64,000 nucleotides of DNA from positions 3,204,462-3,268,461 of the forward strand of contig OZ244986.1 of NCBI GenBank assembly GCA_965223075.1, in the 5' to 3' direction. Below the pieces are notes generated by a model. It saw nothing but the letters and a program-made list of their open reading frames with translations. It had not been told where the DNA came from and did no database searches. Shown here piece by piece: positions 6,501 to 56,826 of this stretch; within the stretch, counting starts at the first letter, position 1; each line of letters opens with the position of its first letter. The DNA is from Candidatus Marinacidobacterium sp. (GTDB lineage: Bacteria; Acidobacteriota; Vicinamibacteria; Marinacidobacterales; Marinacidobacteraceae). A program made the position numbers and the translations under genes.

Positions 6501-6833
6501 TCAGGCGGAGACTTGAGCCTGTTCTCCGTCGGTGCCGTCGGGGCGGTCCACCAATTCGATCCGGAGATCCTTGTCGAGGACCGCCGCCGCGCGGCTCATG
6601 GAGAGGAGGGTGACCGAGCGGTTCTTCGGATTGAGGAGGCGGTCGAGGGCCGCCCGGCTGGTCCTCATTCGGGCTGCCATTTCGGAGTTGGTGAATCCCT
6701 TCTGCTCAATGGCCCGCCTCATCTGAAACGCCAGGACCCGCTTGACTGCGGTGGCCCGGGCTTCCGCGAGCGTGTCGTCTTCTTCGAGGAGCCCATCGAG
6801 TGAAGAGCCGATGTGGGGGTTGTTCTTGGACAT
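6501..6833 (-). CDS. XRE-family HTH antitoxin (HigA-like)
   Basis: 110 aa; HTH segment FTNSEMAARMRTSRAALDRLL; sits immediately downstream of the Gp49-like toxin gene; ATG at 6831-6833. Confidence 0.7.
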   Translation of the reverse strand: MSKNNPHIGSSLDGLLEEDDTLAEARATAVKRVLAFQMRRAIEQKGFTNSEMAARMRTSRAALDRLLNPKNRSVTLLSMSRAAAVLDKDLRIELVDRPDGTDGEQAQVSA

Positions 6834-6878
6834 TTGTAGAGGAGTATTAGGTTCAGTATCTTGAGAGCTGAGTAAACG

Positions 6879-7253
6879 TTACGCCATGTCAGCCCTCCGA
6901 GTCCGAGCGAGATCGAGATCGCGCTTGGGTATTTGATCGGCTTTCTTGAAGAAGCCATGCAGAAGGATCATTTGGGTCTCGTGAACGCAGAACAGGACTC
7001 GGGCGATCCGGTTTCGCAGGCTGCTTCGCGTTTCGAAGAGCCCGTCGCCGAGCGGTCTGCAGACGGGCATTCCGATTGGCCAGCCGTACTCCACGGTCTT
7101 GATGTCGGTGCCGATGACCACGCGATCGTGCTTGTCCAGCCCTCGCAGCCATTCCCGAACCGGTTCGATCCCGTTTGGGGACCGGTAGAACCGTGCCGGG
7201 ACTCGTTTCGAGGGACCATCGACCAACGACCGTATCATAAATGATACACTCAT
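6879..7253 (-). CDS. Gp49-like/RelE-ParE superfamily toxin (HigB-like; DUF891/PF05973-type)
   Basis: 124 aa; paired head-to-tail with the XRE antitoxin; HGFFKK motif typical of Gp49-like toxins; ATG at 7251-7253. Confidence 0.65.
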   Translation of the reverse strand: MSVSFMIRSLVDGPSKRVPARFYRSPNGIEPVREWLRGLDKHDRVVIGTDIKTVEYGWPIGMPVCRPLGDGLFETRSSLRNRIARVLFCVHETQMILLHGFFKKADQIPKRDLDLARTRRADMA

Positions 7254-8064: not shown

Positions 8065-11000
8065 TTGAAATTCGAAGACCTTCACCTCGGCACGCGTTTG
8101 CGCGGAGTCACCCCCGGCGTGGTAACGGTCGTCCAGGCCGAGCTGCGTGGGGACACCGCTCTCAGCCTCACCTATAAGGACGAAGCCGGCGCCCTCCACG
8201 AGGTCCTGCTCTTCCGGGACGACGAATCACGCCTCGAACTCGCCGGTCCCTGCCCGATCCGTTCCTTCGCCGCCGACCCGAAACAGTTCCTCCTCGCGGC
8301 GGAGGCCGAGCGGATTCGCCTTGCCCATCTCTTCGATCCGTACCTCGCCGTCCACACCTCGAAGATCGAACCCCTGCCCCATCAGATCACTGCCGTCTAT
8401 GGCGCGATGCTCGACCGTCACCCTCTGCGCTTCCTCCTCGCTGACGACCCCGGCGCAGGAAAGACGATCATGGCCGGGCTTCTCATCAAGGAACTCGTGC
8501 TGCGGGGCGATCTGGAGCGCTGCCTGGTCGTCGCGCCGGGTTCGCTCGTCGAACAGTGGCAGGACGAACTCGGCGAGAAGTTCGATCTCGACTTTGCGAT
8601 CCTCAGTCGGGATCTGCTCGCCGCGTCTCGGAGCGGCGACCCCTTCTCCGAGCATCCCCGACTGATTGCCCGGCTCGACATGCTGAGCCGCGGCGAGGAT
8701 CTGCAGGACCTGATCCGAAGCGCCGAGGAATGGGACCTCGTGGTCTGCGACGAGGCGCACCGGATGTCGGCAAGTTTCTTCGGCGCCGAGGCGAAGTACA
8801 CGAAGCGGTACCAGCTCGGGCGTCTGCTCCGGGACCGGGCGCGCCACTTCCTGTTGATGACCGCAACGCCGCACAACGGCAAGGAAGAGGACTTCCAGCT
8901 TTTCCTCGCTCTCCTCGATCCGGATCGCTTCGAGGGCCGTTTCCGTCCCGGCGTGCACTCGAAGGATGCAAGCGACACGCTGCGTCGGCTGACCAAGGAA
9001 GAGCTCCGCCGCTTCGACGGGACCGCGCTCTTCCCCGAGCGCCGCGCCTACACCGCCCAGTACGAATTGAGTGAGCCGGAGACCACGCTCTACGAGGCGG
9101 TCACGCAGTACGTCCGTGAGGAGATGAACCGCGCCGAGCGGTTCGCCGCGACCGACGACCGCCGCCGGGTGAACGTGGGCTTCGCCCTGACGGTGCTGCA
9201 ACGCCGGCTCGCGTCTTCGCCGGCCGCGATCCACGAGAGCCTGAAGCGGCGGCTCGCGCGCATGGAGGATCGGTTGACGGCGATGCGGGAAGGTGTTCCG
9301 GCGCCGGCCCCCGCTCCCACTCTCGATCCGGATGACCTTGAGGAGGCGACAGAAGAGGAGATCGAGACAACCGAGGAGCGCGTGCTCGACCAGGCGACCG
9401 CCGCGGCCACCATGGAGGAGCTGGAGACGGAGATCGAGACGCTCCGGCGCCTGGAGAAACAGGCGCGGGCTCTGCGCCTCCGCAACACGGACACCAAGTG
9501 GCGCGAGTTGAACACCGTCCTCGACCACCCGCTGATGACCGCCGGGAACGGCCACCGGCGCAAGCTCATTGTCTTCACCGAACCCCGGGACACTCTCGAA
9601 TACCTCGCCGACCGGATTCGCACCCGGCTCGGAAGGCAGGATGCGGTGGTGGTGATCCACGGCGGCGTGTCGCGCGAGGCCCGGCGCGACGCGGTGGAAG
9701 CGTTCATGAACGACCCCGAGGTGGTCGTCATGGTGGCGAACGACGCGGCGGGCGAGGGCGTGAACCTGCAGCGCGCTCATCTGATGGTGAACTACGACTT
9801 GCCCTGGAACCCGAATCGGCTGGAACAGCGTTTCGGGCGCATCCACCGGATCGGCCAGACCGAGGTCTGTCACCTCTGGAATCTGGTGGCGAAGGACACT
9901 CGTGAAGGCGAGGTCTATGGGCGTCTGCTGGAGAAGCTCGATGTGGCGCGAAAGGCGCTCGGCGGCCGGGTGTATGACGTTCTCGGCCGCCTGTTCGAGG
10001 GCAAGGCCATGCGGGACCTGCTCCTCGACGCGATCCGCTACGGGGAGAGTCCGGAAGCCCGGAACCGTCTCTTCGAGAAGGTGGATCAGGCCGCCGCCAC
10101 GGAGCGGATCGGAGAGTTGCTCGCCGAACGCGCGCTGGTCCGCGAGCACCTGAGCCCGGCGACCGTCGCCGAGATCCGTGACCAGATGGCTCGGGCGAGT
10201 GCCCGGCGGCTGCAGCCGCACTTCATCCGCCGGTTCTTCCTGGAAGCCTTCCGGGCGCTTGGCGGCAGCGTCCATAGGCGCGAGAGCGGGCGGTTCGAGA
10301 TCGCGCGCGTCCCGACCGACATCCGCGACCGGCTGCCCAGGAACCTTCGTCCGGCGGTGCAGCCTCGTTACGAGCGGATCTGCTTCGAGCGGAAAGACGC
10401 GGCCGGTCCGCCGTTCGCGGCCTTCGTGTGCCCCGGCCATCCGCTGCTCGACCGGACGCTCGGTGCGATCCTCGACCGATCGAGGTCGGCCCTCGCCGAG
10501 GGCGCGGTGCTGGTGAACGAAACGGACGACCGTCCGGAGATACGCGCCGAATTTGCGGTGCGAACCGCCGTCACGGATGGCCGAAAGACGCGCTCGGGCT
10601 CGCGGCGCACCATCTCCGAGCGGCTCGCCTTCGTCGAACTGGACGCGAGTGGCCGGGTGGGGAACGGCGGCCCGGCGCCGCACCTCGATTGCCGGCCGAT
10701 CCGGGACGAGGAGCGGGCTCTCCTCGGAGACCGGTTGAGCGCGGAGTGGCTGGGCGGCGACGACGCGATCATGGACCATGCGGTCGGTGCGCTCGTGCCG
10801 GAACACCTCGGCGAAGTCCGGATGCGCCGGGTCGCCGAGATCGAAAAGACGCAACAACAGGTGTTCGAGCGTCTCTCCCGGGAACGGACCCACTGGGACA
10901 ACCGCGCCAACCAGCTCCGGGCGCGGGAGCGCGCGGGGAAGCAGGGCCGCATCGCAGCAGCGCAAGCAGCTCGACGCGCCGAGGAGCTCGACGCCCGCCT

Positions 11001-11532
11001 GGAGCGGAGGATGGCGGAACTGGACCGGGAGGGAGACATTGCAGCCGCGCCCCCGCAGGTCATCGGAGCCTCGCTCGTCGTCCCGGGTGGTCTGCTCCGC
11101 CGGCTCTCGGGTCCCGCGCCCTCCGAGGTCGCGAGCCCCGAGGGTCGGGCCGCCGTGGAGCAGATCGGGATGGCGGCTGTCATGGAGGCGGAACGCGGGC
11201 TCCGGCGGGAGCCGCGTGACGTGAGCGCCGAGAACCGGGGCTACGACATCGAGAGCCGCGACCCGGCGACCGGGCGGCTGCGCTTCATCGAGGTCAAGGG
11301 GAGGCGCGCCGACGCGACCACGGTCACGGTGACCCGCAACGAGACCGCTGTCGCCCTGAACTCACTCGACCAGTCCCACGACTACATCCTCGCCATTGTG
11401 CTCGTCGAGCAGGGGTACGCCCGGCGCACCGCCTACGTAACCGACCCGTTCCGCGCCGGCGTGGACGACACCACCGAAGCAGTCACCCACAACCTGAAGA
11501 GGCTGTTGGCGCGTTCGCAGCAACCGACCTGA
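8065..11532 (+). CDS. SNF2-family helicase with C-terminal DUF3883 (restriction-endonuclease-like) domain
   Basis: ATP-binding DDPGAGKT, DEAH box VVCDEAHRM, helicase-C motif RFGRIHRIGQ, C-terminal GYDIESRD...RFIEVKGR...HDYILAIVLV (DUF3883 pattern); TTG start at 8065 with no in-frame ATG upstream. Confidence 0.9.
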   Translation: MKFEDLHLGTRLRGVTPGVVTVVQAELRGDTALSLTYKDEAGALHEVLLFRDDESRLELAGPCPIRSFAADPKQFLLAAEAERIRLAHLFDPYLAVHTSKIEPLPHQITAVYGAMLDRHPLRFLLADDPGAGKTIMAGLLIKELVLRGDLERCLVVAPGSLVEQWQDELGEKFDLDFAILSRDLLAASRSGDPFSEHPRLIARLDMLSRGEDLQDLIRSAEEWDLVVCDEAHRMSASFFGAEAKYTKRYQLGRLLRDRARHFLLMTATPHNGKEEDFQLFLALLDPDRFEGRFRPGVHSKDASDTLRRLTKEELRRFDGTALFPERRAYTAQYELSEPETTLYEAVTQYVREEMNRAERFAATDDRRRVNVGFALTVLQRRLASSPAAIHESLKRRLARMEDRLTAMREGVPAPAPAPTLDPDDLEEATEEEIETTEERVLDQATAAATMEELETEIETLRRLEKQARALRLRNTDTKWRELNTVLDHPLMTAGNGHRRKLIVFTEPRDTLEYLADRIRTRLGRQDAVVVIHGGVSREARRDAVEAFMNDPEVVVMVANDAAGEGVNLQRAHLMVNYDLPWNPNRLEQRFGRIHRIGQTEVCHLWNLVAKDTREGEVYGRLLEKLDVARKALGGRVYDVLGRLFEGKAMRDLLLDAIRYGESPEARNRLFEKVDQAAATERIGELLAERALVREHLSPATVAEIRDQMARASARRLQPHFIRRFFLEAFRALGGSVHRRESGRFEIARVPTDIRDRLPRNLRPAVQPRYERICFERKDAAGPPFAAFVCPGHPLLDRTLGAILDRSRSALAEGAVLVNETDDRPEIRAEFAVRTAVTDGRKTRSGSRRTISERLAFVELDASGRVGNGGPAPHLDCRPIRDEERALLGDRLSAEWLGGDDAIMDHAVGALVPEHLGEVRMRRVAEIEKTQQQVFERLSRERTHWDNRANQLRARERAGKQGRIAAAQAARRAEELDARLERRMAELDREGDIAAAPPQVIGASLVVPGGLLRRLSGPAPSEVASPEGRAAVEQIGMAAVMEAERGLRREPRDVSAENRGYDIESRDPATGRLRFIEVKGRRADATTVTVTRNETAVALNSLDQSHDYILAIVLVEQGYARRTAYVTDPFRAGVDDTTEAVTHNLKRLLARSQQPT

Positions 11533-11666
11533 GTGACAGGCATCGAACGCCCGAACCTCCCAATCCACGCCCGAAAACCGCCCGGGAGCGCCTTTTGCCG
11601 GAGATATACTGCCGATCCGATGAGGACTTGGCCCTCCTGAGTTCAGCCCTGACGGAAGGGAGATCC

Positions 11667-12314
11667 ATGACGCGCGCCGAAATCGTCCTGGCGGCTATGG
11701 CTGCGGGGGGACGGGGCGTGTCCTATGACGGTCTCCGCATTCAGAAACTCCTGTTCCTGATTGATGTCGAGATATCGGACTTGTTGGAAGGACCGTATTT
11801 CGACTTCGCAGCCTACAACTATGGTCCGTTCGACAAGAGCCTCTACGAAGTACTTGGGGACCTGGAGCGTCGCGGAAACGTTGCGCAGGGACACGAGAAC
11901 GGTTATGCGGACTATTCCCTGACCTCGGAGGGCAGCGTGGAGGGCGGGCGCGTCCTGGGGACGCTTTCCCCAGAGGCGCGTCAGTTCATGGAGAGCGCGG
12001 CGAAGTGGCTCCGGCTGAGCACATTTCGTCGTATCCTGACCGTGATTTATCTCAAGTACCCCGAGATGGCCCGAAACAGCGTCGTGCCTGAACTCAAGGC
12101 TCCTTCGTTCCGGGCGGCGCACCGTTTCGTCCTCCCGTCATTCCTTTCAGGCGTCTCGCGCATCTTCGATTTCACCGGCAGCCTCGATCCACCCATCTAC
12201 CAGGAGCCGCCTGAGCAGGCGGATGCGATGGCCATTCGTCAGGATTGGGAGGCGGTCGGGGACGATCTCGAGCACGCGCTCGCGGCCTTCGGTCCGCCAG
12301 AGCCTGCACGGTGA
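11667..12314 (+). CDS. Panacea (DUF4065)-domain protein, putative antitoxin-type partner
   Basis: LRIQKLLFLIDVE...YNYGPFDKSLYEVL matches the Panacea KLQKLLYxAQ...YGPVxxxVY pattern; ATG at 11667 with AAGGGAG SD; GC ~58%, lower than flanks. Confidence 0.6.
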   Translation: MTRAEIVLAAMAAGGRGVSYDGLRIQKLLFLIDVEISDLLEGPYFDFAAYNYGPFDKSLYEVLGDLERRGNVAQGHENGYADYSLTSEGSVEGGRVLGTLSPEARQFMESAAKWLRLSTFRRILTVIYLKYPEMARNSVVPELKAPSFRAAHRFVLPSFLSGVSRIFDFTGSLDPPIYQEPPEQADAMAIRQDWEAVGDDLEHALAAFGPPEPAR

Positions 12315-12423
12315 CGAAGCGCCGGAACTCGCGCGCGAAGTCGCCTCCCGTCCGGAGATCGGTGGCGGCTGTTGTGGACCTGCCGCGTCCATCCAGCCAT
12401 CGGGCGAATGGAGAGATCGGAGC

Positions 12424-13272
12424 ATGAAGGCAAGTAACGGAATTGCCCGAAGTGCCCGAGCAGTATTCGTGGTTCACGGGCGCAATACCGAGGTGCGCGA
12501 CGCGATGTTCGAGTTTCTTCGCGCCGTTGATTTGCGTCCGATTGAGTGGTCAGAGGCGATCACGGGTACTGGCAGGCCGACCCCATCAATCCCTGAGATT
12601 CTGAGAGCCGCGTTTGCTCGGGCACGAGCCGTGGTCGTCCTGTTGACACCAGACGACAAGGCGGTGCTGAGAGAGCGATACTGGAAGGAAGGTGACCCGG
12701 ACGGCGAGCGCCGACCGTCAGGGCAAGCACGACCCAATGTGCTGTTCGAAGCCGGGATGGCCATGGCCTTCAAGCCAGAACGCACGATTCTCGTGCAGTT
12801 TGGAAGTTTGAGACCCTTTAGCGATATTGGCGGACTTCATGTCGTTCGCTTTCGTAATGACAGCCAGACGCGCCAGAACATCGCATCGAGGCTGGAGACG
12901 GCAGGTTGCCCGGTGAATCTGGCTGGTACGGATTGGCACACCGCGGGTGACTTCAATGATGCCGTGATGGACGACGACGAGGAGTCGTTCGACGAACAAG
13001 CGCCACAAGCCACTGGATGGCGGGAAGTTTCTGACTTCTCGGAACTCTCTGAGAACGCCAGGAGTGCGCTGCAGACAATGGCTGGTACGGATGCACCCTT
13101 AGTCAAATTCGCAAGTCTTGCTGATACTCGATTCCTCGTTGGCAGACGGTCCTTCTCCCCTCGAGTGTTTGAAGAGATGCTGGAAGCAAACTTGATTCGC
13201 GATGAGTCCGGAGAGGGAAAACGGTTCATATTGACCCACGCTGGATATCAGGCTGCCGATGGCCTCCAATAG
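12424..13272 (+). CDS. TIR-like domain protein (PF10137 'predicted nucleotide-binding protein containing TIR-like domain') with ~130-aa C-terminal extension
   Basis: AVFVVHGRN...AVVVLLTPDD...ARPNVLFEAGMAMA...RTILVQFG matches the PF10137 motif order (VFIVHGhD / LLTPDD / RPNVxFExGyf); ATG at 12424 with GGAGAG SD; GC ~55%. Confidence 0.6.
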   Translation: MKASNGIARSARAVFVVHGRNTEVRDAMFEFLRAVDLRPIEWSEAITGTGRPTPSIPEILRAAFARARAVVVLLTPDDKAVLRERYWKEGDPDGERRPSGQARPNVLFEAGMAMAFKPERTILVQFGSLRPFSDIGGLHVVRFRNDSQTRQNIASRLETAGCPVNLAGTDWHTAGDFNDAVMDDDEESFDEQAPQATGWREVSDFSELSENARSALQTMAGTDAPLVKFASLADTRFLVGRRSFSPRVFEEMLEANLIRDESGEGKRFILTHAGYQAADGLQ

Positions 13273-13292
13273 CTGTCAGGTGTGACGCGCTG

Positions 13293-16169
13293 GTGACAAC
13301 AGCCGAGCTCCGGACCGTCCCGAAGCTCATCGAGGTGGCGCTGCCGCTTGATGACATCAACCGGGCGGCGGCGCGGGAGAAGTCCATCCGACACGGCCAC
13401 CCGAGTACGCTGCATCTCTGGTGGGCGCGGCGTCCCCTGGCGGCGGCGCGAGCGGTGCTGTTCGCGCAACTGGTGGACGATCCGTCGGGGCGGCCGGAAC
13501 TCTTCCCGACCGAGGCGGAGCAGGACCGCGAGCGCGAGCGGCTATTCGGGATCCTGCGGAAGCTGGTGCTCTGGGAGAACACCACGAACGAGGAGGTCCT
13601 CGAAGCGGCGCGGGCGGAGATCCGGGAGTCGTGGCGCCGGACGTGCGCCGACAACGCGGACCACCCGCGGGCGGTGGAGCTCTTCGACCCGGAGAAGCTG
13701 CCGGCGTTCCATGACCCGTTTGCCGGGGGCGGCGCCATCCCGCTCGAGGCGCAGCGGCTCGGGCTGGAGGCGCACGCGAGCGACCTGAACCCGGTCGCGG
13801 TGCTCATCAACAAGGCGATGATCGAAATTCCGCCCCGGTTCGCGGGAAGGCCGCCGGTGAACCCGGAGGCGCGGGCGCGGAAGTCGGTGGCCGGACGGGA
13901 GTGGCGCGGGGCGGCGGGGCTCGCCGAGGACGTGCGCTACTACGGGAAGTGGATGCGGGACGAGGCGGAACGGCGGATCGGGCATCTCTACCCGAAGGCG
14001 CGCATCACGCCGGAGATGGTGGCGGACCGGCCGGACCTGGAGCGCTACAAGGGTCGGGACCTGACCGTGATCGCGTGGCTCTGGGCGCGGACGGTGCCGA
14101 GCCCCAACCCGGCGTTTTCGCACGTCCAGGTTCCGCTGGTTTCGACGTTCATGCTCTCGACGAAGAAGGGGAAGGAGGCGTACGTGGAGCCGGTGGTGGA
14201 GGGCGACTCTTTCCGGTTCGAGGTCCGGGTGGGAACGCCGCCGGATTTCGGAGCCTCGGAAAGAGGTACGAGCGCTGGAAAACGCAGTGGATTCCGATGT
14301 CTGATGTCCGGCTCGCCGATTACCTTCAATCACGTTCGCGTTGAGGGACGGGAGGGGCGGATCGGACAGCGACTCATGGCAGTCGTCGCGGCAGGCGATC
14401 GAAGTCGAATCTATCTGCCCCCCGCGGTGGTGCAACAAACGACGGTCAGCGAAACACCTTGGAATCCCGACGTTCGCTTGGAAGGCAAGTGTCGAGTCAA
14501 CGTCTCGAACTATGGCTTCGACGTTTACAGAGACCTCTTTACGTCGCGGCAGCTCGTCGCTCTGACGAATTTGTCTGACCTTGTCAGTGAGGCGGTGAAG
14601 CGAGCGCGTGCGGACGCGGCACAATCTTATCTGCCCGCCGACGACCGACCACTGGCCGAAGGCGGCACCGGCCCCTGCGCCTATGCCGAGGCGGTTGGGG
14701 TGTATCTCGGTTTGTCTGTCAGCCGGACGACCAACACCATCAATGCCCATACAGTTTGGTCTAAGGGTAGAGGACAGACCGTGAATCTGTTCAGCCGGCA
14801 GGCTATACCAATGACTTGGGATTTCCCCGAGGCGAGTCCCTTCTCGCGAGCGGCGGGTGACTTCGCCATGACTACGGATTCGGTAAGTAAAGTGCTCACT
14901 TACGTCTCAAGAGGCTTTGGAACTGCGGCGCAAGAAGACGCGCAGACACAAGTCAGATCGGTCTTGCGGATCGTCTCAACGGACCCGCCGTACTACGACA
15001 ACGTTGCCTATGCGGACCTGTCAGATTTCTTCTATGTGTGGCAACGGAGGACTCTTCGTCAGACTTACCCTGACATATTCGCCACGGTGTCAGTGCCCAA
15101 AGCCGACGAGCTAGTGGCGACCCCGTACCGTCACGCCAGCAAGCAAGCTGCAGAGACATTCTTCCTTAGGGGAATGACTCGGGCACTCCGGCGACTCTCA
15201 GAACAACCTCATGGTGCATTTCCGATCACCGTCTACTACGCGTTCAAACAGTCAGAAACGAAAACCGGAACCAGAACGGTGAGCACGGGTTGGGAGACGT
15301 TCTTGGACGCCGTTATCCGATCCGGATTCGCGATCTCCGGAACATGGCCAATGCGTACTGAAAGGCCGACGGGCGTAAAGGTTGCTTTCAACGCACTCGC
15401 GTCAAGCATCGTTCTCGCGTGTCGAAGACGACTCCCCAATGCGCCCTCGACTACCCGGCGCAGTTTCCTGGCTGCTCTCCACACGGAACTTCCAGAAGCC
15501 ATCACTCGCCTCCAGGACGAAAACATCGCGCCGGTAGATCTCGCGCAGGCCGCCATCGGCCCCGGCATGGCGATCTTCACCCGCTACTCGCGCGTCCTCG
15601 AAGCCGACGACTCCCCGATGACCGTTCGCATGGCCCTCGCCCTCATCAATGCGGAACTCGACCAGATCCTCTCCGCTCAGGACGCCGACTACGATCCCTG
15701 GACCCGCTTCGCGGTCACCTGGTTCGAGACGAAGGGCATGGACCCCGGCCCCTACGGTGACGCTGAGACCCTCGCCACCGCCCGCGGCGTGGCGGTCGAA
15801 GGCGTCGTCCACGCTGGCATCCTGAAGGCGACCGCCGGCCAGGCCCGCCTACTCCGCCGGGACGAACTCGATCCCGGCTGGTCCCCCGAAACCGACGACC
15901 GCCTCACTGTCTGGGAGTGCGCACAGCACGTCGCCCGCCGCCACGAAGACGGCGGCGAGATGTCCGCCGCCGCGCTGGTCGCCCGCCTCGGCGACCGCGC
16001 CGCCGCCGCCCACGCCCTCGCCTATCGCCTCTACGGCATCTGCGACCGGAAGAAACTCGCCGAAGAAGCCCTCGTCTGGAACGAACTCGTCCAACTCTGG
16101 CCCCGCCTCACTGAACTAGCCCCTACCGCCACCGCCCCGCGCCCCCAAGACCTTCTCAGCAGTAAATGA
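13293..16169 (+). CDS. DUF1156 (COG1743) Zn-ribbon-type adenine-specific DNA methyltransferase
   Basis: N-terminal LIEVALPLDDINRAAAREKSIRHGHPSTLHLWWARRP is the DUF1156 signature; DPPY catalytic motif (STDPPYYDNVAY); GTG start; the central ~1.2 kb has distinctly lower GC. Confidence 0.85.
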   Translation: MTTAELRTVPKLIEVALPLDDINRAAAREKSIRHGHPSTLHLWWARRPLAAARAVLFAQLVDDPSGRPELFPTEAEQDRERERLFGILRKLVLWENTTNEEVLEAARAEIRESWRRTCADNADHPRAVELFDPEKLPAFHDPFAGGGAIPLEAQRLGLEAHASDLNPVAVLINKAMIEIPPRFAGRPPVNPEARARKSVAGREWRGAAGLAEDVRYYGKWMRDEAERRIGHLYPKARITPEMVADRPDLERYKGRDLTVIAWLWARTVPSPNPAFSHVQVPLVSTFMLSTKKGKEAYVEPVVEGDSFRFEVRVGTPPDFGASERGTSAGKRSGFRCLMSGSPITFNHVRVEGREGRIGQRLMAVVAAGDRSRIYLPPAVVQQTTVSETPWNPDVRLEGKCRVNVSNYGFDVYRDLFTSRQLVALTNLSDLVSEAVKRARADAAQSYLPADDRPLAEGGTGPCAYAEAVGVYLGLSVSRTTNTINAHTVWSKGRGQTVNLFSRQAIPMTWDFPEASPFSRAAGDFAMTTDSVSKVLTYVSRGFGTAAQEDAQTQVRSVLRIVSTDPPYYDNVAYADLSDFFYVWQRRTLRQTYPDIFATVSVPKADELVATPYRHASKQAAETFFLRGMTRALRRLSEQPHGAFPITVYYAFKQSETKTGTRTVSTGWETFLDAVIRSGFAISGTWPMRTERPTGVKVAFNALASSIVLACRRRLPNAPSTTRRSFLAALHTELPEAITRLQDENIAPVDLAQAAIGPGMAIFTRYSRVLEADDSPMTVRMALALINAELDQILSAQDADYDPWTRFAVTWFETKGMDPGPYGDAETLATARGVAVEGVVHAGILKATAGQARLLRRDELDPGWSPETDDRLTVWECAQHVARRHEDGGEMSAAALVARLGDRAAAAHALAYRLYGICDRKKLAEEALVWNELVQLWPRLTELAPTATAPRPQDLLSSK

Positions 16170-16350: not shown

Positions 16351-17577
16351 ATGAGGGTCTCTCACGCAGTGAACACGACAGAAAAACGAGACGGTTTCTT
16401 CGCTCGCAGAGTCGCAGCGCTCTGTCAGGAAATAGAGAAGTGGGCACGCGCAAATGACCTATGGCATGACTGTGGGTTCTTCGACTATCTGGAGCGAGTA
16501 GATCCACTTCGGTGGGACGACACCGCGTACGCGGTGGTTTTGGCTGCAGAAGGCGACTTTGCCCGAGTGATCTTTGCCCGTGATTACTGGGCCGCAGATG
16601 GAGAGCGTGACTTACCGGAAGAGTTTGACCAAATCTTGCAAAGACACGGCTTTTGGTATGAACAATACGATCACACAGAAATGTGGATCTACCCTAACGG
16701 AAACTCGCTAGAGGCGGAATTCAGAGAGCACTTACGTTGGAAGTGGATATGCAATCTGATAAAACCCGACTTCGACTTGCTGAATGAGGAGCTATACGAT
16801 CACTTCGGAAAGACGCCTGATCGGCTACAGGCGTTGGACTGGCGAGACTTCGAGAAACTCGTTGCTGCCTTGTTGGAGTCTCAAGGGTACGAAGTGGAAC
16901 TTGGCCCAGGGAGCAACGATGGGGGCGTAGACATAAGGCTTCTTCAGAGGGATCCAGTTGGGGATATTCTGACTTTGGTTCAGGTCAAGCGGTACAGAAC
17001 TGATCGGCGAATACGGCTTGATGCTGTGCAGGCCCTACACGGAGCTATGACGGCGGAAGGTGCCCCCCGGAGCATGTTCGTTACAACATCCGAATATGCG
17101 GTGAGTGCACGAAAATTCGCGAATCGACACAATGTACCGATGACGTTCCATACGTCGGATGATGTTCAGCAGTGGTGCAGGGATGCCCATAACGGCATCG
17201 TGGAGGACAAGAGGACCCTCGTGTCCGAAAAAAATATCGCCAAGATTATCGAGAAAGCGCAGACAGACCACCGGCAAGTGCTTCACAGTCAAGGTGGCTA
17301 CAGTATGACAATGAACACGTTTGCCGTAGTACTAAAGGCGACGCGTACCTCCGCGCTGCTGTTGGAACTTCCGACACGGACGACCGAACATGACGGGTAC
17401 GGACAGCGAGGCCGCGAAGTGCCTGACTTGGGTCCAGCGCTGCCGCTTTCGCACCTTCGTGGAAACGAGATACGGAGGGCAAGAAGGACACCAGGCAGTG
17501 CTGGGACGTTCTGGGATGGTCATAGACGGTATGCGCCTTGGGGTGGCAAGCCCGTCCATTTCGACTACATGGATTGA
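16351..17577 (+). CDS. Mrr-like restriction endonuclease (Mrr_cat PD-(D/E)xK domain) with ~150-aa unknown N-domain
   Basis: FEKLVAALLESQGYEVELGPGSNDGGVDIRLL...LVQVKRY matches the Mrr catalytic core; GC ~52% versus ~70% flanks; AT-rich upstream (ttaaatcatcagacc); the 3' ~280 nt return to high GC and low-complexity translation, so the true stop is uncertain. Confidence 0.6.
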   Translation: MRVSHAVNTTEKRDGFFARRVAALCQEIEKWARANDLWHDCGFFDYLERVDPLRWDDTAYAVVLAAEGDFARVIFARDYWAADGERDLPEEFDQILQRHGFWYEQYDHTEMWIYPNGNSLEAEFREHLRWKWICNLIKPDFDLLNEELYDHFGKTPDRLQALDWRDFEKLVAALLESQGYEVELGPGSNDGGVDIRLLQRDPVGDILTLVQVKRYRTDRRIRLDAVQALHGAMTAEGAPRSMFVTTSEYAVSARKFANRHNVPMTFHTSDDVQQWCRDAHNGIVEDKRTLVSEKNIAKIIEKAQTDHRQVLHSQGGYSMTMNTFAVVLKATRTSALLLELPTRTTEHDGYGQRGREVPDLGPALPLSHLRGNEIRRARRTPGSAGTFWDGHRRYAPWGGKPVHFDYMD

Positions 17578-17750: not shown

Positions 17751-21032
<3,282 letters not shown>

Positions 21033-52464: not shown

Positions 52465-52525
52465 TCAGGCGCCCGCGAACGGATTGACCACCCGGACGCC
52501 CGACGCAGTCCTGATCCCGCGTTCT
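52465..52525 (-). pseudogene. Remnant of a vapC-like 3' end (encodes ...GVRVVNPFAGA*)
   Basis: About 55 bp that align (imperfectly) with the 3' end of the intact vapC at 56408-56470, in the same orientation. Confidence 0.4.
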
Positions 52526-52532
52526 CGGATCA

Positions 52533-55500
52533 TCACAGATCTTCGCCACAACGCTTGAGATACTCCCTCAGCTTCAGGAATTCCCGATCGTCGCCGAGAG
52601 CCGGTTCGGCGGTGCGAATGCCACGTAGGCACTCTCGAAGTTCGTCGGATGGCCAAGGGTCTTCTTCGCCGATAACGCGAACCAGGAGTTCTAGCGCTTC
52701 ACGCGGAAACTTCTTACACAGGCCAGCCTCATGGAGTGAATGCACGAGTCGATCAGCGTAACTTACCGGTTGTAGCCAGGGCCGGAGTGTTTTCAGTGCC
52801 TCCGGGAATGCGTCTCCCGCAGCGATGCAGACGCGGGCGAAGGACTCCGCGATCGACGAAGAGGCCTTATCCCGTGTTCTCGGCCAAATCTTGCGTACGT
52901 ACGGCTCAACCCTATTCGTCCAATAGGGGACGCGCTGATCGCCCGCGCCGTCGATGGCGCGGACCAATGCGTCTGCAGCTTCCTCAAGCCCGTCCTGTGG
53001 CAGTGCGCGAGTGGCTGCCGCCAACTCCGCGTTCGTAAAGACATCGCTAGGGTCAAGCGCAGCGAATGTCAGGAGTGAAGCATATTGGCCCTTGAACTGT
53101 CCGAGCGCTTCATAGTGAGACGCCGTATCCAGGAATTCCGGTTTGACCTCCTCAACCAGCGGTCGATACAACTGCGGCGACCACAGAAACCCTCCCCACA
53201 CGGAGCGTGCCTCGCACTCGGAGCGCGACCAGTCAAATAGCGGCAGAAGATGTTCAGCTGTCCATTTCCGGTCAACTCGGAACAACGCGATGACGTGAGC
53301 AGCGAGAAGCACGCGTCCGTGGCCAAAACTAGGGACCCCTGTCTTGCAGAGCAGGGAAAAGCGTTCCCGTAGCCCGTCATGCAACCCCTGTTCATCTTCC
53401 AAAGACCCGCGATACCAGTATTCAAGTAGTGCCTCGGTCACTTTGCCCACTGGATGATTGATTGCACGACCGACCACATCCTCCGCGTCGCCGCCGTCCT
53501 CGTAGTCCAGCGCCAGAACACGGTCACATAGCTCGAAAAATGTCGACTCGTGCCCCTCAAAGGTCTTAGCAGTCTTTTCTAGCCACCAACTAATGTCGTG
53601 CGCGAGGTTCTTGAGGGGCGTTTCCGGCGCACTCACCAAGACAGGCATCACAAGGCGCCAAGACGGCCGTATTAGTGTGTCCTCCGACCACACATGCAAC
53701 GCTTTACCCCATCGGCTGGTGGGCCATATGTTCTCCTTCGCCAGTGCAGATAATGCGGACGCGGCAACGGAAAGATCTTCTCGGCAACGAACAGCCCAGT
53801 CGTCCTCGTGCCAAGGATCAGTCCCTTGATTCTCCCTGAGCCAGTTCGTGAGTTCGGGAAGATCGCGTGGTGTCGTGACGGACTCTCGCCAGTCACCAGA
53901 ATCGCTCATCCAAGTGGAGAACTCGTCGCGTTCATTCTCGGCAGGTTTCCAGTCGGGGTGGTGGGCCGAAAGCTCCGTCAGTCTCTGCCGCGTGGTCTTG
54001 CTCAACTTCGCGCCGGACGAGACGACTTTGCTCAGGCGCAGCCAAATGTCTCTCTCCTGGATCCGAGTCCATCGTTCGGGCTCTATTTCGGGCCTGAACA
54101 TTTCACGGGGCGGTCCGGCCTCAATGGCCTGCTCGAGTTGAGCCAACTGTGTATCATCGAGCCGTGGCGCTAGGGAAACTAGTAGCCGTATGCTCTCGCG
54201 CGAGGTTTCCGAGGACCAAAGCCACCAACAGCCATCAGCAAGCAACCACTCAAGCCCGCGGTTAGGGGGAATGATCCCGCTCTGAGTGGCGGCGAACAAC
54301 GCCAAACGACGGAACAGGGGATAGGGAGTTTGCCACCAAATCTCCGCAACGATCCTTGCCCTGTCGGGCGAACTCATGCATGTGGCAAGCCACGCGTCGC
54401 GCGTCCATTCGATCAGCGCGGTCCAGTCATGAAAGCCTCTGTTTTGCGGGTGATCGCTGATGGATGGTTGATGTACGTAGGAAAGATCACTCTTATCGGT
54501 GGCGCCACCGAGCTCGCGCATTAGGTCGAGAGCGTCGTGTAGGAGTCCGTTGAAATCCTGCAACAGCTCTGGAAGCACTGCCGTCCAGCGATCGTCGGTT
54601 GTTAGCTTGCCCAGGCGTGCACGGACCATGTCCGTCGACAGCACAACCTTCCATTCGACCAAGTCTCGGATGCGGTCTGATTCTTCGCTCTCGCGCTCTT
54701 CGGAAGGCAACCGGAATGGCTCGCTCAATGACACGCGAGGAGTAAGCAGTTCGCGCAGTTCCAGACGTAGGCTGGCGGTTATACCATCGCGCTCAAATCG
54801 GTTCGTCCAGGCGTGCAGACGGCGGTCGGGATCCTCACCTCTCACACGGTCTGTCAGCAACAAACGCCAGAGCGTCCGCATTGACGCACGAGGAATTGCG
54901 TTTCGCGCGTTCGCTCGAATGCGGTCCAGTTCTGCACTGTTGCCATTGCGCTCCAGCGTTGTGATTTGGCGGATACGGTTCTCGATCATCCATGCCAGCT
55001 TTTCGTGCACTCGTCCACCGAGCTTGGTGAGCCGCAACAACAATGCGGGGTCGTCGAGATGACGAGTCAACCATCGCCCCAGCTGCCACATTACTTCGTC
55101 CCAGCGCGCGGCCCGCAGATCGGTGTCCGCAAGTGTCATCCACGGAGCGAGTGTGTACGGTGGCGGTCTGTACGTCAGACTGAATGCGAGGTCGGAATCT
55201 GGCGCTGCGTTGGGCGTCACGCTAAAACGGTCCAGGTCGCTATGCCCGAACCGCGCTTCGCTCAACGGCTCATACCAATCGAGAGGAGGTACCGGGTCGA
55301 GTTCTGCAAAGCGCTTCGCTGGCAATCCACTGGGATCTGACAATGCCCACAACATGCGAGTGGCGAAATCGTCCTGTTTCGTGCTCGTTGGCGGGTGCCC
55401 AATGGCACAGTCAACGACGATTCTCTCTTTTCCACGTGCCCCGTCGCGGTAGGTGTCGGCCCACACGCGAAACGTCTCATGCAAGTACGTGTGCTGTGGG

Positions 55501-56318
55501 TCTTCCGCATAGAGGATAGGTGTGACGTTCTTGGCCTTCCACTCTCCTTCTCGTTCGGCCTCCTTGCCCTTGGAGAATGCTCCGAAAACGAACATCTCTG
55601 GCGCCGACTCTCCGAACCGACGGTCTGCAGCGAGAGCATCGGCCATATAGCGCAGAACTGGGTCGGTGAGGCTATAGCCGACGAAGCACACGGTATAGGT
55701 GCGAAACAGCTCGCTAACAAATCGCGCTGCCCAGCGCTCCGTAAGATAGGCGAGGCCAAAGTCGCCGCTAGTCAGGACAAGTCGTTCGAGATCGTTTAGC
55801 GAGGGTTTTTCGGTCAGCAAGCCGTGGAGATAGACCAAGCCGTTCCAGCGACGCTTGGGAATCGGGAGGAGGGGGGCTCGGAAACAGTCCACTGAGGATC
55901 CCGTGCTAGCAATGACTTCATGAAAGAGTCGGTCGAAATTGGTGGTAATAAGTCGAGTGCGGCCATCGCGGGTCTCGCCTAATGTCAACAGGGCGTGATG
56001 GGTAGCCGTTGCACTTGGTGCCGTCAGGTCAGGAGTCAGGATGTTGACCAGTACGTCACCCACAGCCTGACGGCCACCGAGCAGTTTCTCCTCAAGCAGC
56101 CCGATTGCTGTGTCGTACCGGCCCTCCCCTATGGCGGCCGCCTGCTCAGGAGTTGGATCAGTATGCAGATCCTCGTAGAGTCTCTCTACAAGGCCTTTGA
56201 ATCCTGGCAAGCGCGCCGGGTAAGAAATACCCGCGCCGCAGAAGAACACAACGCGCCCGTCTTCGTGCGCCTGCAAGAGCCGTTCAGGGACGTCTGGACC
56301 GCCCGTGGTGAACTGCAT
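52533..56318 (-). CDS. Large SIR2-like (PF13289-type, DHS-like NAD-binding) domain protein, 1261 aa; defence-associated-sirtuin (DSR)-like candidate
   Basis: N-terminal VVFFCGAGISYPARLPGFKGL matches the SIR2_2 signature; long alpha-helical C-terminal region without NTPase motifs; GC ~56% versus ~70% genome; ATG at 56316-56318. Confidence 0.8.
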   Translation of the reverse strand: MQFTTGGPDVPERLLQAHEDGRVVFFCGAGISYPARLPGFKGLVERLYEDLHTDPTPEQAAAIGEGRYDTAIGLLEEKLLGGRQAVGDVLVNILTPDLTAPSATATHHALLTLGETRDGRTRLITTNFDRLFHEVIASTGSSVDCFRAPLLPIPKRRWNGLVYLHGLLTEKPSLNDLERLVLTSGDFGLAYLTERWAARFVSELFRTYTVCFVGYSLTDPVLRYMADALAADRRFGESAPEMFVFGAFSKGKEAEREGEWKAKNVTPILYAEDPQHTYLHETFRVWADTYRDGARGKERIVVDCAIGHPPTSTKQDDFATRMLWALSDPSGLPAKRFAELDPVPPLDWYEPLSEARFGHSDLDRFSVTPNAAPDSDLAFSLTYRPPPYTLAPWMTLADTDLRAARWDEVMWQLGRWLTRHLDDPALLLRLTKLGGRVHEKLAWMIENRIRQITTLERNGNSAELDRIRANARNAIPRASMRTLWRLLLTDRVRGEDPDRRLHAWTNRFERDGITASLRLELRELLTPRVSLSEPFRLPSEERESEESDRIRDLVEWKVVLSTDMVRARLGKLTTDDRWTAVLPELLQDFNGLLHDALDLMRELGGATDKSDLSYVHQPSISDHPQNRGFHDWTALIEWTRDAWLATCMSSPDRARIVAEIWWQTPYPLFRRLALFAATQSGIIPPNRGLEWLLADGCWWLWSSETSRESIRLLVSLAPRLDDTQLAQLEQAIEAGPPREMFRPEIEPERWTRIQERDIWLRLSKVVSSGAKLSKTTRQRLTELSAHHPDWKPAENERDEFSTWMSDSGDWRESVTTPRDLPELTNWLRENQGTDPWHEDDWAVRCREDLSVAASALSALAKENIWPTSRWGKALHVWSEDTLIRPSWRLVMPVLVSAPETPLKNLAHDISWWLEKTAKTFEGHESTFFELCDRVLALDYEDGGDAEDVVGRAINHPVGKVTEALLEYWYRGSLEDEQGLHDGLRERFSLLCKTGVPSFGHGRVLLAAHVIALFRVDRKWTAEHLLPLFDWSRSECEARSVWGGFLWSPQLYRPLVEEVKPEFLDTASHYEALGQFKGQYASLLTFAALDPSDVFTNAELAAATRALPQDGLEEAADALVRAIDGAGDQRVPYWTNRVEPYVRKIWPRTRDKASSSIAESFARVCIAAGDAFPEALKTLRPWLQPVSYADRLVHSLHEAGLCKKFPREALELLVRVIGEEDPWPSDELRECLRGIRTAEPALGDDREFLKLREYLKRCGEDL

Positions 56319-56406
56319 GTGACCTTACGCCCGGTGCACGGTGATCACCGGTTCTTTGACATCCGAATCGGGCTCAACCTGGTTTAAGGAGGCCCGCCTG
56401 GTTGCC

Positions 56407-56826
56407 TCAGACGGTGGCGCCCGCGAACGGGTTGACCACCCGGACGCCGTCGTAGTCCTGGTCGGGGTTCAGGTCCTCGGTGTAAACCGTCCGGCACCCG
56501 GCAGCGCGCGCCGCTGCGAGGATGGCGGCATCCCAGTAGGCAACGCGAAACCGTTCCGTGAGATCGAGGGCGTCATGGATCACTCCCAGGGTGAGCGGCT
56601 GCACCGGGAAACGTTCGAGGCTTCGGACGAAGGCCACGGCTTCCTGGTGGCTGAGGCTCCACGGCCTCGTCGGGCGCGTTGCCTGCCAGTAGAACTCCTG
56701 AAACACCTGGACCGACAAGGCGAGATCGGTTGCATCGAGAAGCTCCAGCGCGCGCCTTTTCTTTCCCGTTTCTTCAGCGACGGGGCTGATCGCGTAGAGC
56801 AGAACGTTCGTGTCAACGAAGCGCAT
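56407..56826 (-). CDS. vapC: VapC PIN-domain toxin
   Basis: MRFVDTNVLLYA...; PIN acidic residues (D5, E41-like, D-T region); overlaps vapB by 14 nt. Confidence 0.85.
   Translation of the reverse strand: MRFVDTNVLLYAISPVAEETGKKRRALELLDATDLALSVQVFQEFYWQATRPTRPWSLSHQEAVAFVRSLERFPVQPLTLGVIHDALDLTERFRVAYWDAAILAAARAAGCRTVYTEDLNPDQDYDGVRVVNPFAGATV

What the first reader, a model, noticed from the sequence alone, without database searches (positions are those of the whole stretch)
11595..13272. Low-GC Panacea (DUF4065) + TIR-like (PF10137) gene pair inserted inside the defence operon
GC drops to ~55-58% exactly over these two genes. The Panacea domain is a promiscuous antitoxin module, and PF10137 TIR-like domains act as NAD+-depleting or nucleotide-signalling effectors in CBASS/Pycsar contexts. 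A Panacea-neutralised TIR-like toxin embedded between the helicase and the methylase suggests a toxin-antitoxin or abortive-infection add-on, possibly guarding the R-M-like core. To my knowledge this pairing is not a described PanAT combination.
Basis: partly seen in the sequence, partly recalled or inferred. Interest (0 to 1): 0.75.

Follow-up and report, generated by a model that had tools for sequence, protein, structure and literature searches.

The report
Swapped TIR effector beside orphaned antitoxin
Inside a known phage-defence operon (Hma), a low-GC gene for a TIR-type NAD-degrading enzyme has replaced the membrane-toxin partner of an antitoxin-like gene, so the two genes are neighbours by cassette exchange and are not shown to be a matched toxin-antitoxin pair.

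Summary

The GC claim holds in part: ORF B 57.0%, ORF A 61.4%, and equal dips occur in mid-hmaB and the Mrr gene.

The two genes did not arrive together. ORF A's usual partner is a DUF2335 membrane protein, seen in 26+ loci. These include Hma operons whose ORF A is 88-91% identical and sits in the same slot. In the window a ~0.9-kb cassette (12404-13312) carrying ORF B replaced that gene. Its first 38 codons survive (12311-12427) and bridge the ORF A stop and the ORF B start.

ORF A occurs without ORF B, and ORF B occurs with ORF A deleted. TIR-linked ORF A alleles share no specific residues.

Best reading: an orphaned PanA-like antitoxin next to a self-contained TIR-like effector. A new PanA-TIR toxin-antitoxin pair is possible but disfavoured. 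Gene embedding in Hma is already published.

The parts
8065..11532 (+). hmaA: SNF2 helicase with a C-terminal NOV_C nuclease-like domain. It forms the left flank of the cassette slot.
   Evidence: PADLOC HmaA 1462 bits over the full length; Pfam SNF2-rel_dom, Helicase_C, NOV_C.
11576..11666 (+). Conserved upstream leader of ORF A. It travels with ORF A in every island variant.
   Evidence: DNA homology to L144, L055, L051, L057 and L052 starts here. No Rfam hit and no above-background fold.
11667..12314 (+). ORF A, 215 aa, a PanA-like antitoxin homologue. Residues 1-145 (11667-12101) form a Panacea/DarG-C-like winged-helix domain with the QKLLFL...YGPF motif (GPF at 11823-11831). Residues 146-215 form a conserved tail: a disordered stretch followed by helix 182-208.
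12311..12427 (+). Fossil 5' end (38 codons) of the displaced DUF2335 toxin gene. Its GTGA overlaps the ORF A stop and its ATGA overlaps the ORF B start.
   Evidence: The peptide VTKRRNSRAKS... matches the first 11 residues of the intact 168-aa DUF2335 protein of L146 exactly. DNA homology to L146, L148, L055 and L147 ends at 12403.
12404..13312 (.). Swapped-in low-GC cassette of about 0.9 kb. It is absent from sister Hma operons, which carry the DUF2335 gene plus a 108-117-aa gene here.
   Evidence: blastn breakpoints at 12403 and 13309-13322 against L146, L147, L148, L140, L058 and L002; ORF B GC 57.0%.
12424..13272 (+). ORF B, 282 aa. The TIR-like PF10137 domain covers residues 9-175 (12448-12948), with R103/N105/E109 (the E109 codon GAA is at 12748-12750). 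Residues 184-203 form a disordered linker. Residues 205-282 (13036-13269) form a winged-helix-like domain. ORF B lacks the ~120-aa N-terminal domain that most relatives carry.
13293..16169 (+). hmaB: DUF1156 methyltransferase, the right flank of the slot. The segment 14246-14970 is a low-GC variable part with no homology to sister loci.
   Evidence: PADLOC HmaB 1402 bits; breakpoints; GC.
16351..17577 (+). Mrr_cat restriction-endonuclease gene embedded in the second slot, between hmaB and hmaC. GC is 53.7%.
   Evidence: Pfam Mrr_cat 3e-29. L051 has a UvrD-like helicase here and L146 has two small genes.
17751..21032 (+). hmaC: a DUF499 ATPase with an N-terminal HEPN_Swt1 domain.
   Evidence: PADLOC HmaC 1010 bits; Pfam HEPN_Swt1 1e-33.

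Best explanation
The hmaA-hmaB gap of this Hma operon is a cassette slot. Its resident was a two-gene toxin-antitoxin-like module: a PanA-like antitoxin (ORF A) translationally coupled to a DUF2335 two-transmembrane-helix protein, the presumed membrane toxin.

In the lineage of the window, recombination replaced the body of the DUF2335 gene, and the small gene after it, with a ~0.9-kb low-GC cassette. The left crossover lies about 90 bp into the DUF2335 gene and the right crossover about 20 bp into hmaB. The cassette encodes ORF B, a TIR-like enzyme with a C-terminal winged helix. ORF B derives from stand-alone PDC-S35-type proteins but has lost their N-terminal domain.

ORF A is therefore an orphaned antitoxin. 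It may be kept as protection against incoming DUF2335 toxins or for a role tied to hmaB. ORF B is most likely a self-contained abortive-infection effector. It is co-transcribed with Hma, and the fossil leader probably couples its translation to ORF A. On a trigger sensed through its winged-helix domain, it would oligomerise and hydrolyse NAD+ through R103/N105/E109.

Shown: domain identities, the swap, the fossil, the independence of the two genes across loci, and purifying selection on both. Inferred: DUF2335 toxicity, NADase activity, the trigger and oligomerisation, and the present role of ORF A.
For: Ancestral layout. L146 carries HmaA, ORF A (91% identical), DUF2335 (168 aa), a 108-aa gene, HmaB and HmaC. 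L148 has the same order (88% identical). DUF2335 follows ORF A homologues, usually with a 4-bp overlap, in 26+ loci (PF10097 E 1.7e-14).

The swap. Homology with L146, L148, L055 and L147 stops at 12403 and resumes at 13309-13322. The 38-codon fossil is described.

The slot is a swap hotspot. L147 has a 233-aa TM-rich protein there, L057 has three opposite-strand genes, and in L140/L142/L001 ORF A overlaps hmaB directly.

Addiction-like persistence. L144/L145 lie at the same chromosomal site (flanks 95-97% identical). They have lost Hma but keep ORF A, DUF2335 and the last 250 nt of hmaC.

Independence of the two genes. None of 50 ORF A loci has a TIR gene, and none of 80 TIR loci has an ORF A-like gene. 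L052 lacks ORF A codons 1-181 but keeps an intact ORF B. In the ORF A tree the window groups with DUF2335-linked L055/L146 and L051 groups with L148, and no residue is specific to the TIR-linked alleles.

ORF B is probably active. R103, N105 and E109 are invariant in 46 sequences and match SfSTING R78/N80/E84 (PMC9402430). The fold is TIR. dN/dS is 0.25-0.28.

No terminator-like site lies between the genes. Gene embedding in Hma is a documented phenomenon.
Against: ORF A, the fossil and ORF B form an unbroken chain of 4-bp overlaps in the window, which is what a functional bicistronic toxin-antitoxin unit looks like. The arrangement is kept in a second diverged locus (L051).

ORF B lacks the N-terminal domain of its relatives, so it may need a regulator acting in trans.

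ORF A stays intact under purifying selection in several lineages without DUF2335. 'Orphan' therefore does not explain its function.

The key ORF-B-without-ORF-A case (L052) is a single rearranged 4-kb metagenome contig, and a second ORF A copy elsewhere in that genome cannot be excluded.

No activity or interaction was measured.
Confidence: 0.55

Rival explanations
1. New PanA-TIR toxin-antitoxin or abortive-infection module. After the swap, ORF A binds and silences ORF B. ORF B lacks its own N-terminal regulatory domain, and phage infection or loss of ORF A releases the NADase.
For: The order is antitoxin first, on the same strand, with a chain of 4-bp overlaps. The pair is kept in the window and L051 under purifying selection. 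The Panacea domain is documented to pair with dozens of unrelated toxins and may act as a sensor (PMC8832971, PMC10440598). The ORF A fold resembles the DarG domain that binds and inhibits DarT. A relative of ORF B (P0216) carries an N-terminal HicB-like antitoxin domain in place of the usual N-domain, which shows this TIR clade under antitoxin-type control. ORF B lacks the N-domain.
Against: ORF A alleles 88-93% identical to the window's are paired with DUF2335. No residues are specific to the TIR-linked alleles, and those alleles are not sisters. ORF B is intact where ORF A is deleted (L052). ORF A sits in the same slot without a TIR gene in at least four lineages. Co-occurrence is 0/50 and 0/80 in the two family surveys.
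Confidence: 0.25
2. ORF A is mainly a winged-helix DNA-binding regulator. Together with its leader it forms a regulated expression platform, and whatever cassette lands downstream (DUF2335, TIR, the 233-aa protein, hmaB) comes under its control.
Against: The longest structural match (135 residues) is the DarG toxin-binding domain, not a regulator. The signature GP[VF] motif and the tight 4-bp coupling to a small membrane protein are typical of toxin-antitoxin pairs. No operator-like repeat was looked for or found. The NetFlax authors argue that Panacea itself is not the transcriptional autoregulator.
Confidence: 0.1
3. ORF B is not an autonomous effector. It is either an accessory subunit of Hma (for example a nucleotide- or DNA-sensing module working with HmaB/HmaC) or a decaying, N-terminally truncated remnant with no activity.
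Against: The catalytic-type R/N/E motif is invariant and dN/dS is 0.25-0.28. Relatives are stand-alone genes in many unrelated contexts, including type I R-M operons. Most Hma systems lack any such gene.
Confidence: 0.1

Closest known systems
PanA-PanT (Panacea/DUF4065) type II toxin-antitoxin systems (Kurata et al. 2022, PMC8832971; Ernits et al. 2023, PMC10440598)
   Same: ORF A has a Panacea-like core with the QKLL(F/Y)...GP(F/V) signature. It sits first in a two-gene, overlapping module. Its usual partner is a small transmembrane protein, a class of PanT shown to depolarise membranes. Partner swapping is the hallmark of the family.
   Different: ORF A is below the Pfam threshold and has GPF rather than GPV, plus a ~70-aa conserved C-terminal tail. 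Neither DUF2335 nor PF10137 appears as a partner in those papers or their held supplements. In the window the cognate toxin is gone and the neighbour is a swapped-in gene with no evidence of co-adaptation.
DarG C-terminal domain of the DarTG toxin-antitoxin system (PDB 7yk3)
   Different: ORF A has no macrodomain, no DarT-like gene is nearby, and the sequence match is marginal (E 0.025).
PDC-S35 (PADLOC phage defence candidate, untested; from the 'embedded genes' study, bioRxiv 10.1101/2024.01.29.577857)
   Same: ORF B matches all five PDC-S35 models (best 2e-17). Its 417-aa relative P0124 matches one over the full length. Both are found embedded in R-M-like operons.
   Different: ORF B matches only the TIR half. 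It lacks the PDC-S35 N-terminal domain and adds a C-terminal winged helix.
CAP12 TIR-STING and PycTIR effectors (PF10137; CBASS and Pycsar)
   Different: ORF B has no STING, SAVED or cyclic-nucleotide-binding domain, and no CD-NTase or Pycsar cyclase is in the operon. The partner domain is a winged helix, so the trigger cannot be assumed to be a cyclic nucleotide.
Hma systems with embedded defence cassettes (Payne et al. 2024 preprint; Liu et al. 2024, PMC11232893)
   Same: HmaA, HmaB and HmaC are all present. Co-oriented extra genes lie between hmaA and hmaB and between hmaB and hmaC, as in 62-66% of Hma systems.
   Different: The cassettes reported there are Septu, PARIS, Ppl, ABC-ATPase pairs and GmrSD-like genes. 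A PanA-like/DUF2335 module and a TIR-like replacement are not described.

Membership tests
Panacea / SocA_Panacea (PF13274, DUF4065) | Match to the Pfam model at or above the gathering score (25.7 bits) | tested here: not met
   ORF A scores 14.9 bits, E 0.05, over model positions 1-92 of 113. Nine of 45 relatives have E<0.1, best 2.8e-5. Two short relatives have precomputed hits.
Panacea / SocA_Panacea (PF13274, DUF4065) | Conserved GPV signature motif, reported as critical for neutralisation (PMC8832971) | tested here: inconclusive
   ORF A has Y52-G53-P54-F55. G53 and P54 are invariant in 45 sequences, but the third residue is F, not V.
Panacea / SocA_Panacea (PF13274, DUF4065) | Panacea fold | tested here: inconclusive
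Panacea / SocA_Panacea (PF13274, DUF4065) | Encoded next to a toxin gene in a conserved two-gene module | tested here: met
   This is met for the family with DUF2335 (26+ loci, mostly 4-bp overlaps). It is not met for ORF A with ORF B.
Type II toxin-antitoxin pair (ORF A with ORF B) | The two genes co-occur and co-evolve across genomes | tested here: not met
   The pair occurs in only two distinct loci (window = L053/L054, and L051). L052 keeps ORF B but has lost most of ORF A. Each gene is found without the other. The two family surveys gave 0/50 and 0/80. No shared allele-specific residues were found.
Type II toxin-antitoxin pair (ORF A with ORF B) | The toxin arrests growth and the antitoxin neutralises it by binding | not testable with these tools
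   This needs expression assays or complex prediction.
CAP12/PycTIR TIR domain (PF10137) | Pfam model above the gathering score, and TIR fold | tested here: met
CAP12/PycTIR TIR domain (PF10137) | Active-site residues equivalent to SfSTING R78, N80 and E84 | tested here: met
   R103, N105 and E109 have the same spacing, are invariant in 46 sequences and sit at the start of the predicted helix 104-116. The equivalence rests on motif spacing, not on a residue-level superposition.
CBASS / Pycsar effector | A cyclic-nucleotide sensor domain on the effector and a cyclase gene in the operon | tested here: not met
   The only other domain is a winged helix. No CD-NTase or cyclase model hit any neighbouring gene tested.
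PDC-S35 (PADLOC candidate) | Full-length match to the model (N-terminal domain plus TIR-like domain) | tested here: not met
   ORF B covers only model positions 117-259 of 264. P0124 covers 22-273 of 278. The N-domain HMM finds nothing in the window.
Hma defence system | HmaA, HmaB and HmaC homologues on one strand | tested here: met
   PADLOC scores are 1462, 1402 and 1010 bits.

The most novel reading that the evidence does not exclude
The locus captures Panacea 'hyperpromiscuity' in the act. Antitoxin alleles 85-93% identical to one another sit upstream of a DUF2335 membrane toxin, a TIR-like NADase or a 233-aa membrane protein. They are joined through the same fossil leader of the old toxin gene. 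If the window's ORF A really neutralises or gates ORF B, one nearly unchanged PanA can control structurally unrelated toxins. That would point to a generic mechanism (sensor or platform), and PanA-TIR would be a new toxin-antitoxin/abortive-infection class embedded in Hma.
Probability: 0.22. Interest if true: 0.75.

Novelty: new variant of a known kind. Interest (0 to 1): 0.42.

Why it matters
Partner swapping in toxin-antitoxin systems is usually inferred from distant comparisons. Here a set of closely related loci shows the breakpoints, a fossil of the displaced toxin, and several alternative cassettes behind one antitoxin. This gives a natural experiment with ready-made constructs. One can ask whether a PanA-like protein that evolved with a membrane toxin also controls a TIR NADase. 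One can also ask whether an N-terminally truncated PDC-S35-type TIR protein is active on its own. The locus adds a PanA-like/DUF2335 module and a TIR-winged-helix gene to the catalogue of Hma-embedded cassettes. If the two genes are independent, the finding is an ordinary instance of the already published 'embedded defence gene' pattern.

Tried and rejected
- Rfam scan of 11400-13400 (E<=1) found only a chance HIV_FS2 hit. Folding of the ORF A leader gave z +1.5, so there is no RNA element.
- The promoter/terminator scan found no terminator between the genes and one weak promoter-like site inside ORF B, which is not informative.
- I tested whether the strongly conserved 3' end of ORF A hides a nucleic-acid element. 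Codon identity among identical residues is flat (0.53-0.66) along the gene, so this was rejected.
- NCBIfam and PHROGs gave nothing useful for either ORF beyond unnamed phrogs.
- The ORF B family profile against PDB sequences gave no TIR hit by sequence, only a weak HxlR winged-helix match for the C-terminal domain.
- The afdb50 fold library was unavailable. BFVD gave only weak Panacea support.
- I searched for DUF2335 remnants beyond the leader in the window, L001, L051, L052, L057 and L058 and found none at E<0.1.
- The long ORF 12223-13272 (349 aa) was rejected as the ORF B start. Its upstream part has no counterpart in homologues, and ATG 12424 has a ribosome-binding site and aligns with the starts of P0122 and L051.
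- The idea that the pair is one horizontally acquired unit was rejected on the breakpoints and on the different divergences (window-L051 dS is 0.37 for ORF A and 0.54 for ORF B).
Full report
1. WHAT IS THERE

The + strand of window 8-21 kb carries a complete Hma defence operon. HmaA is an SNF2 helicase with a NOV_C domain (8065-11532, PADLOC 1462 bits). HmaB is a DUF1156 methyltransferase (13293-16169, 1402 bits). HmaC is a DUF499 ATPase (17751-21032, 1010 bits) that here has an N-terminal HEPN_Swt1 domain.

Three extra co-oriented genes are embedded in it. ORF A (11667-12314, 215 aa) and ORF B (12424-13272, 282 aa) lie between hmaA and hmaB. An Mrr_cat endonuclease gene (16351-17577) lies between hmaB and hmaC. 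No terminator-like site separates the genes.

Related proteins come from sponge- and coral-type metagenomes and Acidobacteriota MAGs. The exact ORF B sequence sits on a 4.2-Mb NCBI genome.

2. CHECKING THE OBSERVATION

ORF B is a clear PF10137 (CAP12/PycTIR TIR) protein: E 2.1e-26, residues 14-144.

ORF A is only sub-threshold for Panacea: PF13274 at 14.9 bits against a cut-off of 25.7, E 0.05. The assignment is nevertheless reasonable at the superfamily level, for these reasons:
- Nine of 45 family members hit PF13274, best E 2.8e-5.
- Short 142-aa relatives carry precomputed PF13274 hits.
- The family conserves IQKLLFL...YGPF, close to the Panacea GPV signature.
- PADLOC DarG, PDC-M19A and a type I S-subunit C-terminal model all hit the same region.
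- A Panacea-annotated phage protein appears in BFVD at probability 0.98.

The core is a winged helix with extra helices. Residues 147-181 are predicted disordered, and a conserved helix spans 182-208.

On GC, the window mean is 66.5%. ORF B is 57.0% (GC3 59%; 1.6th percentile of 850-bp windows). ORF A is 61.4% (10.6th percentile). The spacer is 68.8%. Similar dips occur in mid-hmaB (57.9%) and the Mrr gene (53.7%).

3. WHAT THE TWO GENES ARE ELSEWHERE

ORF A family. In 50 loci from representative genomes, none has an ORF-B-like TIR gene within 10 kb. Instead the full-length (~215 aa) proteins are followed by a 165-200-aa protein, usually with a 4-bp overlap. That protein has a basic N-terminus, a DUF2335 core (PF10097, E 1.7e-14) and two transmembrane helices. 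This is the classic layout of a PanA with a membrane PanT. Neither DUF2335 nor TIR/PF10137 appears in the two PanAT papers or their held supplements, and DUF2335 is barely mentioned anywhere in the searchable literature.

ORF B family. There are about 5,000 homologues. Most close ones are ~400 aa, with an extra ~120-aa N-terminal domain, then the TIR-like domain, then the same C-terminal domain as ORF B. The 417-aa relative P0124 matches PADLOC's untested candidate PDC-S35 over its full length, whereas ORF B matches only the TIR half.

In 80 metagenome loci with ORF-B-like TIR domains, none has an ORF A-like neighbour. Other recurrent neighbours are a PDC-M14A zinc-ribbon protein and small HTH proteins. 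Some of these genes sit in type I R-M operons.

4. HOW THE NEIGHBOURHOOD AROSE

Sister loci give a step-by-step picture.

L146 and L148 are Hma operons whose backbone is 83-90% identical to the window. They read HmaA, ORF A (91% and 88% identical), DUF2335 (168-170 aa), a 108-117-aa gene, then HmaB. DNA homology between the window and L146, L148, L055 and L147 runs through hmaA, the ORF A leader and ORF A. It stops at 12403, 21 nt before the ORF B start, and resumes at 13309-13322, about 20 nt into hmaB. The ~0.9-kb segment 12404-13312 is therefore a replacement cassette.

What remains of the DUF2335 gene is a 38-codon ORF (12311-12427). Its first 11 residues (VTKRRNSRAKS) are identical to the L146 protein. 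Its GTG overlaps the ORF A stop (GTGA) and its stop overlaps the ORF B ATG (ATGA). L051 and L052 share the same fossil and junction, which fits a single origin of the TIR cassette.

Other lineages filled or emptied the same slot differently:
- L147 has a 233-aa TM-rich protein, with a longer fossil.
- L057 has three opposite-strand genes.
- In L140/L142/L001 (64% identical) ORF A overlaps hmaB directly.
- L058 is a rearranged locus.

L144/L145 occupy the same chromosomal site as the window, with flanks 95-97% identical. They have lost Hma but keep ORF A, DUF2335 and the last 250 nt of hmaC. L055 is another variant of the site, with ORF A (93% identical), DUF2335 and hmaA fragments. Survival of the ORF A-DUF2335 pair through deletion of the surrounding system is what an addictive toxin-antitoxin module would do.

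5. ARE ORF A AND ORF B A FUNCTIONAL PAIR?

Arguments for:
- The order is right and the overlaps form an unbroken chain.
- The arrangement is retained in the window and L051.
- Both genes are under purifying selection (dN/dS 0.11-0.23 for ORF A, 0.25-0.28 for ORF B).
- ORF B lacks the N-terminal domain.
- The ORF A fold is DarG-like.
- One relative of ORF B (P0216) has a HicB-like antitoxin domain fused in place of the N-domain.

Arguments against:
- ORF A alleles 88-93% identical to the window's are partnered with DUF2335.
- In an ORF A tree the two TIR-linked alleles are not sisters. The window groups with L055/L146 and L051 groups with L148. No residue is shared by them to the exclusion of the DUF2335-linked alleles.
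- Divergences differ: window-L051 dS is 0.37 for ORF A and 0.54 for ORF B.
- In L052, window positions 11658-12208 (ORF A codons 1-181) are deleted and no ORF A signal remains in six frames, yet ORF B is intact at 283 aa.
- ORF A persists in the slot without any TIR gene in at least four lineages.

I therefore favour a chimera (0.55): an orphaned PanA-like antitoxin next to an autonomous TIR-like effector that took the toxin's expression slot. The new toxin-antitoxin reading keeps about 0.25, because the first step of any partner swap must look exactly like this and because L052 is a single short, rearranged contig. Two minor alternatives are that ORF A acts as a winged-helix regulator or expression platform (0.1), and that ORF B is an Hma accessory or an inactive remnant (0.1).

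6. LIKELY MECHANISM (INFERRED)

The operon transcript carries hmaA, ORF A, the fossil ORF, ORF B and hmaB. Termination and reinitiation across the two 4-bp overlaps would tie ORF B translation to ORF A.

By analogy with PF10137 effectors, whose active site is completed only in oligomers (PMC9402430), ORF B would stay inactive until its winged-helix domain binds a trigger and drives assembly. It would then deplete NAD+ through R103/N105/E109. The nature of the trigger is unknown and was not examined here. This would add an abortive-infection layer to Hma.

The present role of ORF A is unknown. Its tail (residues 146-215) is as conserved in the DUF2335-less lineages as elsewhere, so it is doing something. 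Candidates are immunity against incoming DUF2335 toxins, a link to hmaB (with which it overlaps in L140/L142/L001), or control of whatever sits downstream.

7. COMPARISON WITH KNOWN SYSTEMS, AND NOVELTY

Embedding of defence genes in Hma is published: 62.7% of 1,485 systems and 66.5% in a second study. PDC-S35 is a listed but untested candidate. Membrane PanTs and Panacea partner swapping are established.

What is new here:
- a divergent PanA-like/DUF2335 module as a resident of the hmaA-hmaB slot;
- an N-terminally truncated TIR-winged-helix variant replacing the toxin;
- a closely spaced series of loci with breakpoints and a fossil that document the swap.

That makes it a new variant of known kinds, of moderate interest (0.42). 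If ORF A does control ORF B, it would be a new PanAT class and an unusually clean test of how Panacea tolerates unrelated toxins (probability about 0.22, interest about 0.75).

Noticed in passing
L035, L037, L039-L047 (e.g. L040:1433-2601): Short 142-aa Panacea-like proteins without the C-terminal tail are followed, mostly with a 4-bp overlap, by a ~247-aa proteasome-subunit-like protein (PF00227, E 2.5e-7). One Vicinamibacterales MAG has five copies, each next to a transposase-like gene. This may be another undescribed Panacea partner.
   Followed up: partly
window 14246-14970 (inside hmaB): This low-GC segment (~58%) has no DNA homology to sister Hma loci, although both flanks of hmaB are 79-90% identical. 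It looks like a swapped variable (target-recognition-like) region of the methyltransferase.
   Followed up: partly
window 16351-17577: A second cassette slot lies between hmaB and hmaC. The window has an Mrr_cat endonuclease here (GC 53.7%), L051 has a UvrD-like helicase, and L146 has two small genes of 161 and 224 aa.
   Followed up: partly
window 17751-18150: HmaC carries an N-terminal Swt1-like HEPN domain (E 1e-33) fused to the DUF499 ATPase. The same architecture is seen in L051, L058 and L146.
   Followed up: no
window 6501-7253 (- strand): A Gp49-like toxin gene (PF05973, 6879-7253) and a 110-aa ORF next to it (6501-6833) sit at the left edge of the island. In the sister locus L144 the corresponding 110-aa product has a weak HTH_37 hit. 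They are conserved at 95% identity in strains whose island content differs (L144, L055).
   Followed up: no
L144:7910-9597 and L145: This is the same chromosomal site as the window (flanks 95-97% identical). The Hma system is deleted, but ORF A, DUF2335 and the last 250 nt of hmaC are retained, which is consistent with addiction-type persistence of the module.
   Followed up: yes
L091, L099, L100, L106, L109, L117, L124, L125, L128, L131, L133, L137, L138: ORF-B-like proteins with an N-terminal TIR domain and a ~125-aa C-extension are followed by a ~155-aa zinc-ribbon protein that matches PADLOC PDC-M14A (E 1.8e-18). This is a different recurrent two-gene module for the same TIR clade.
   Followed up: partly
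L147:8645-9621: In this Hma locus the DUF2335 body is replaced by a 233-aa protein with a hydrophobic N-terminal region. About 45 codons of the old toxin leader are left, so the slot has seen a third kind of replacement.
   Followed up: partly
window 52501-56451: This is another extended low-GC stretch (<60% in 850-bp windows), far from the finding. It was not examined.
   Followed up: no
L146:5101-5427 and L148:4589-4942: A 108-117-aa gene of unknown function sits between the DUF2335 gene and hmaB in the ancestral-type loci. It was lost together with the DUF2335 body in the window and could be a third component of that module.
   Followed up: no
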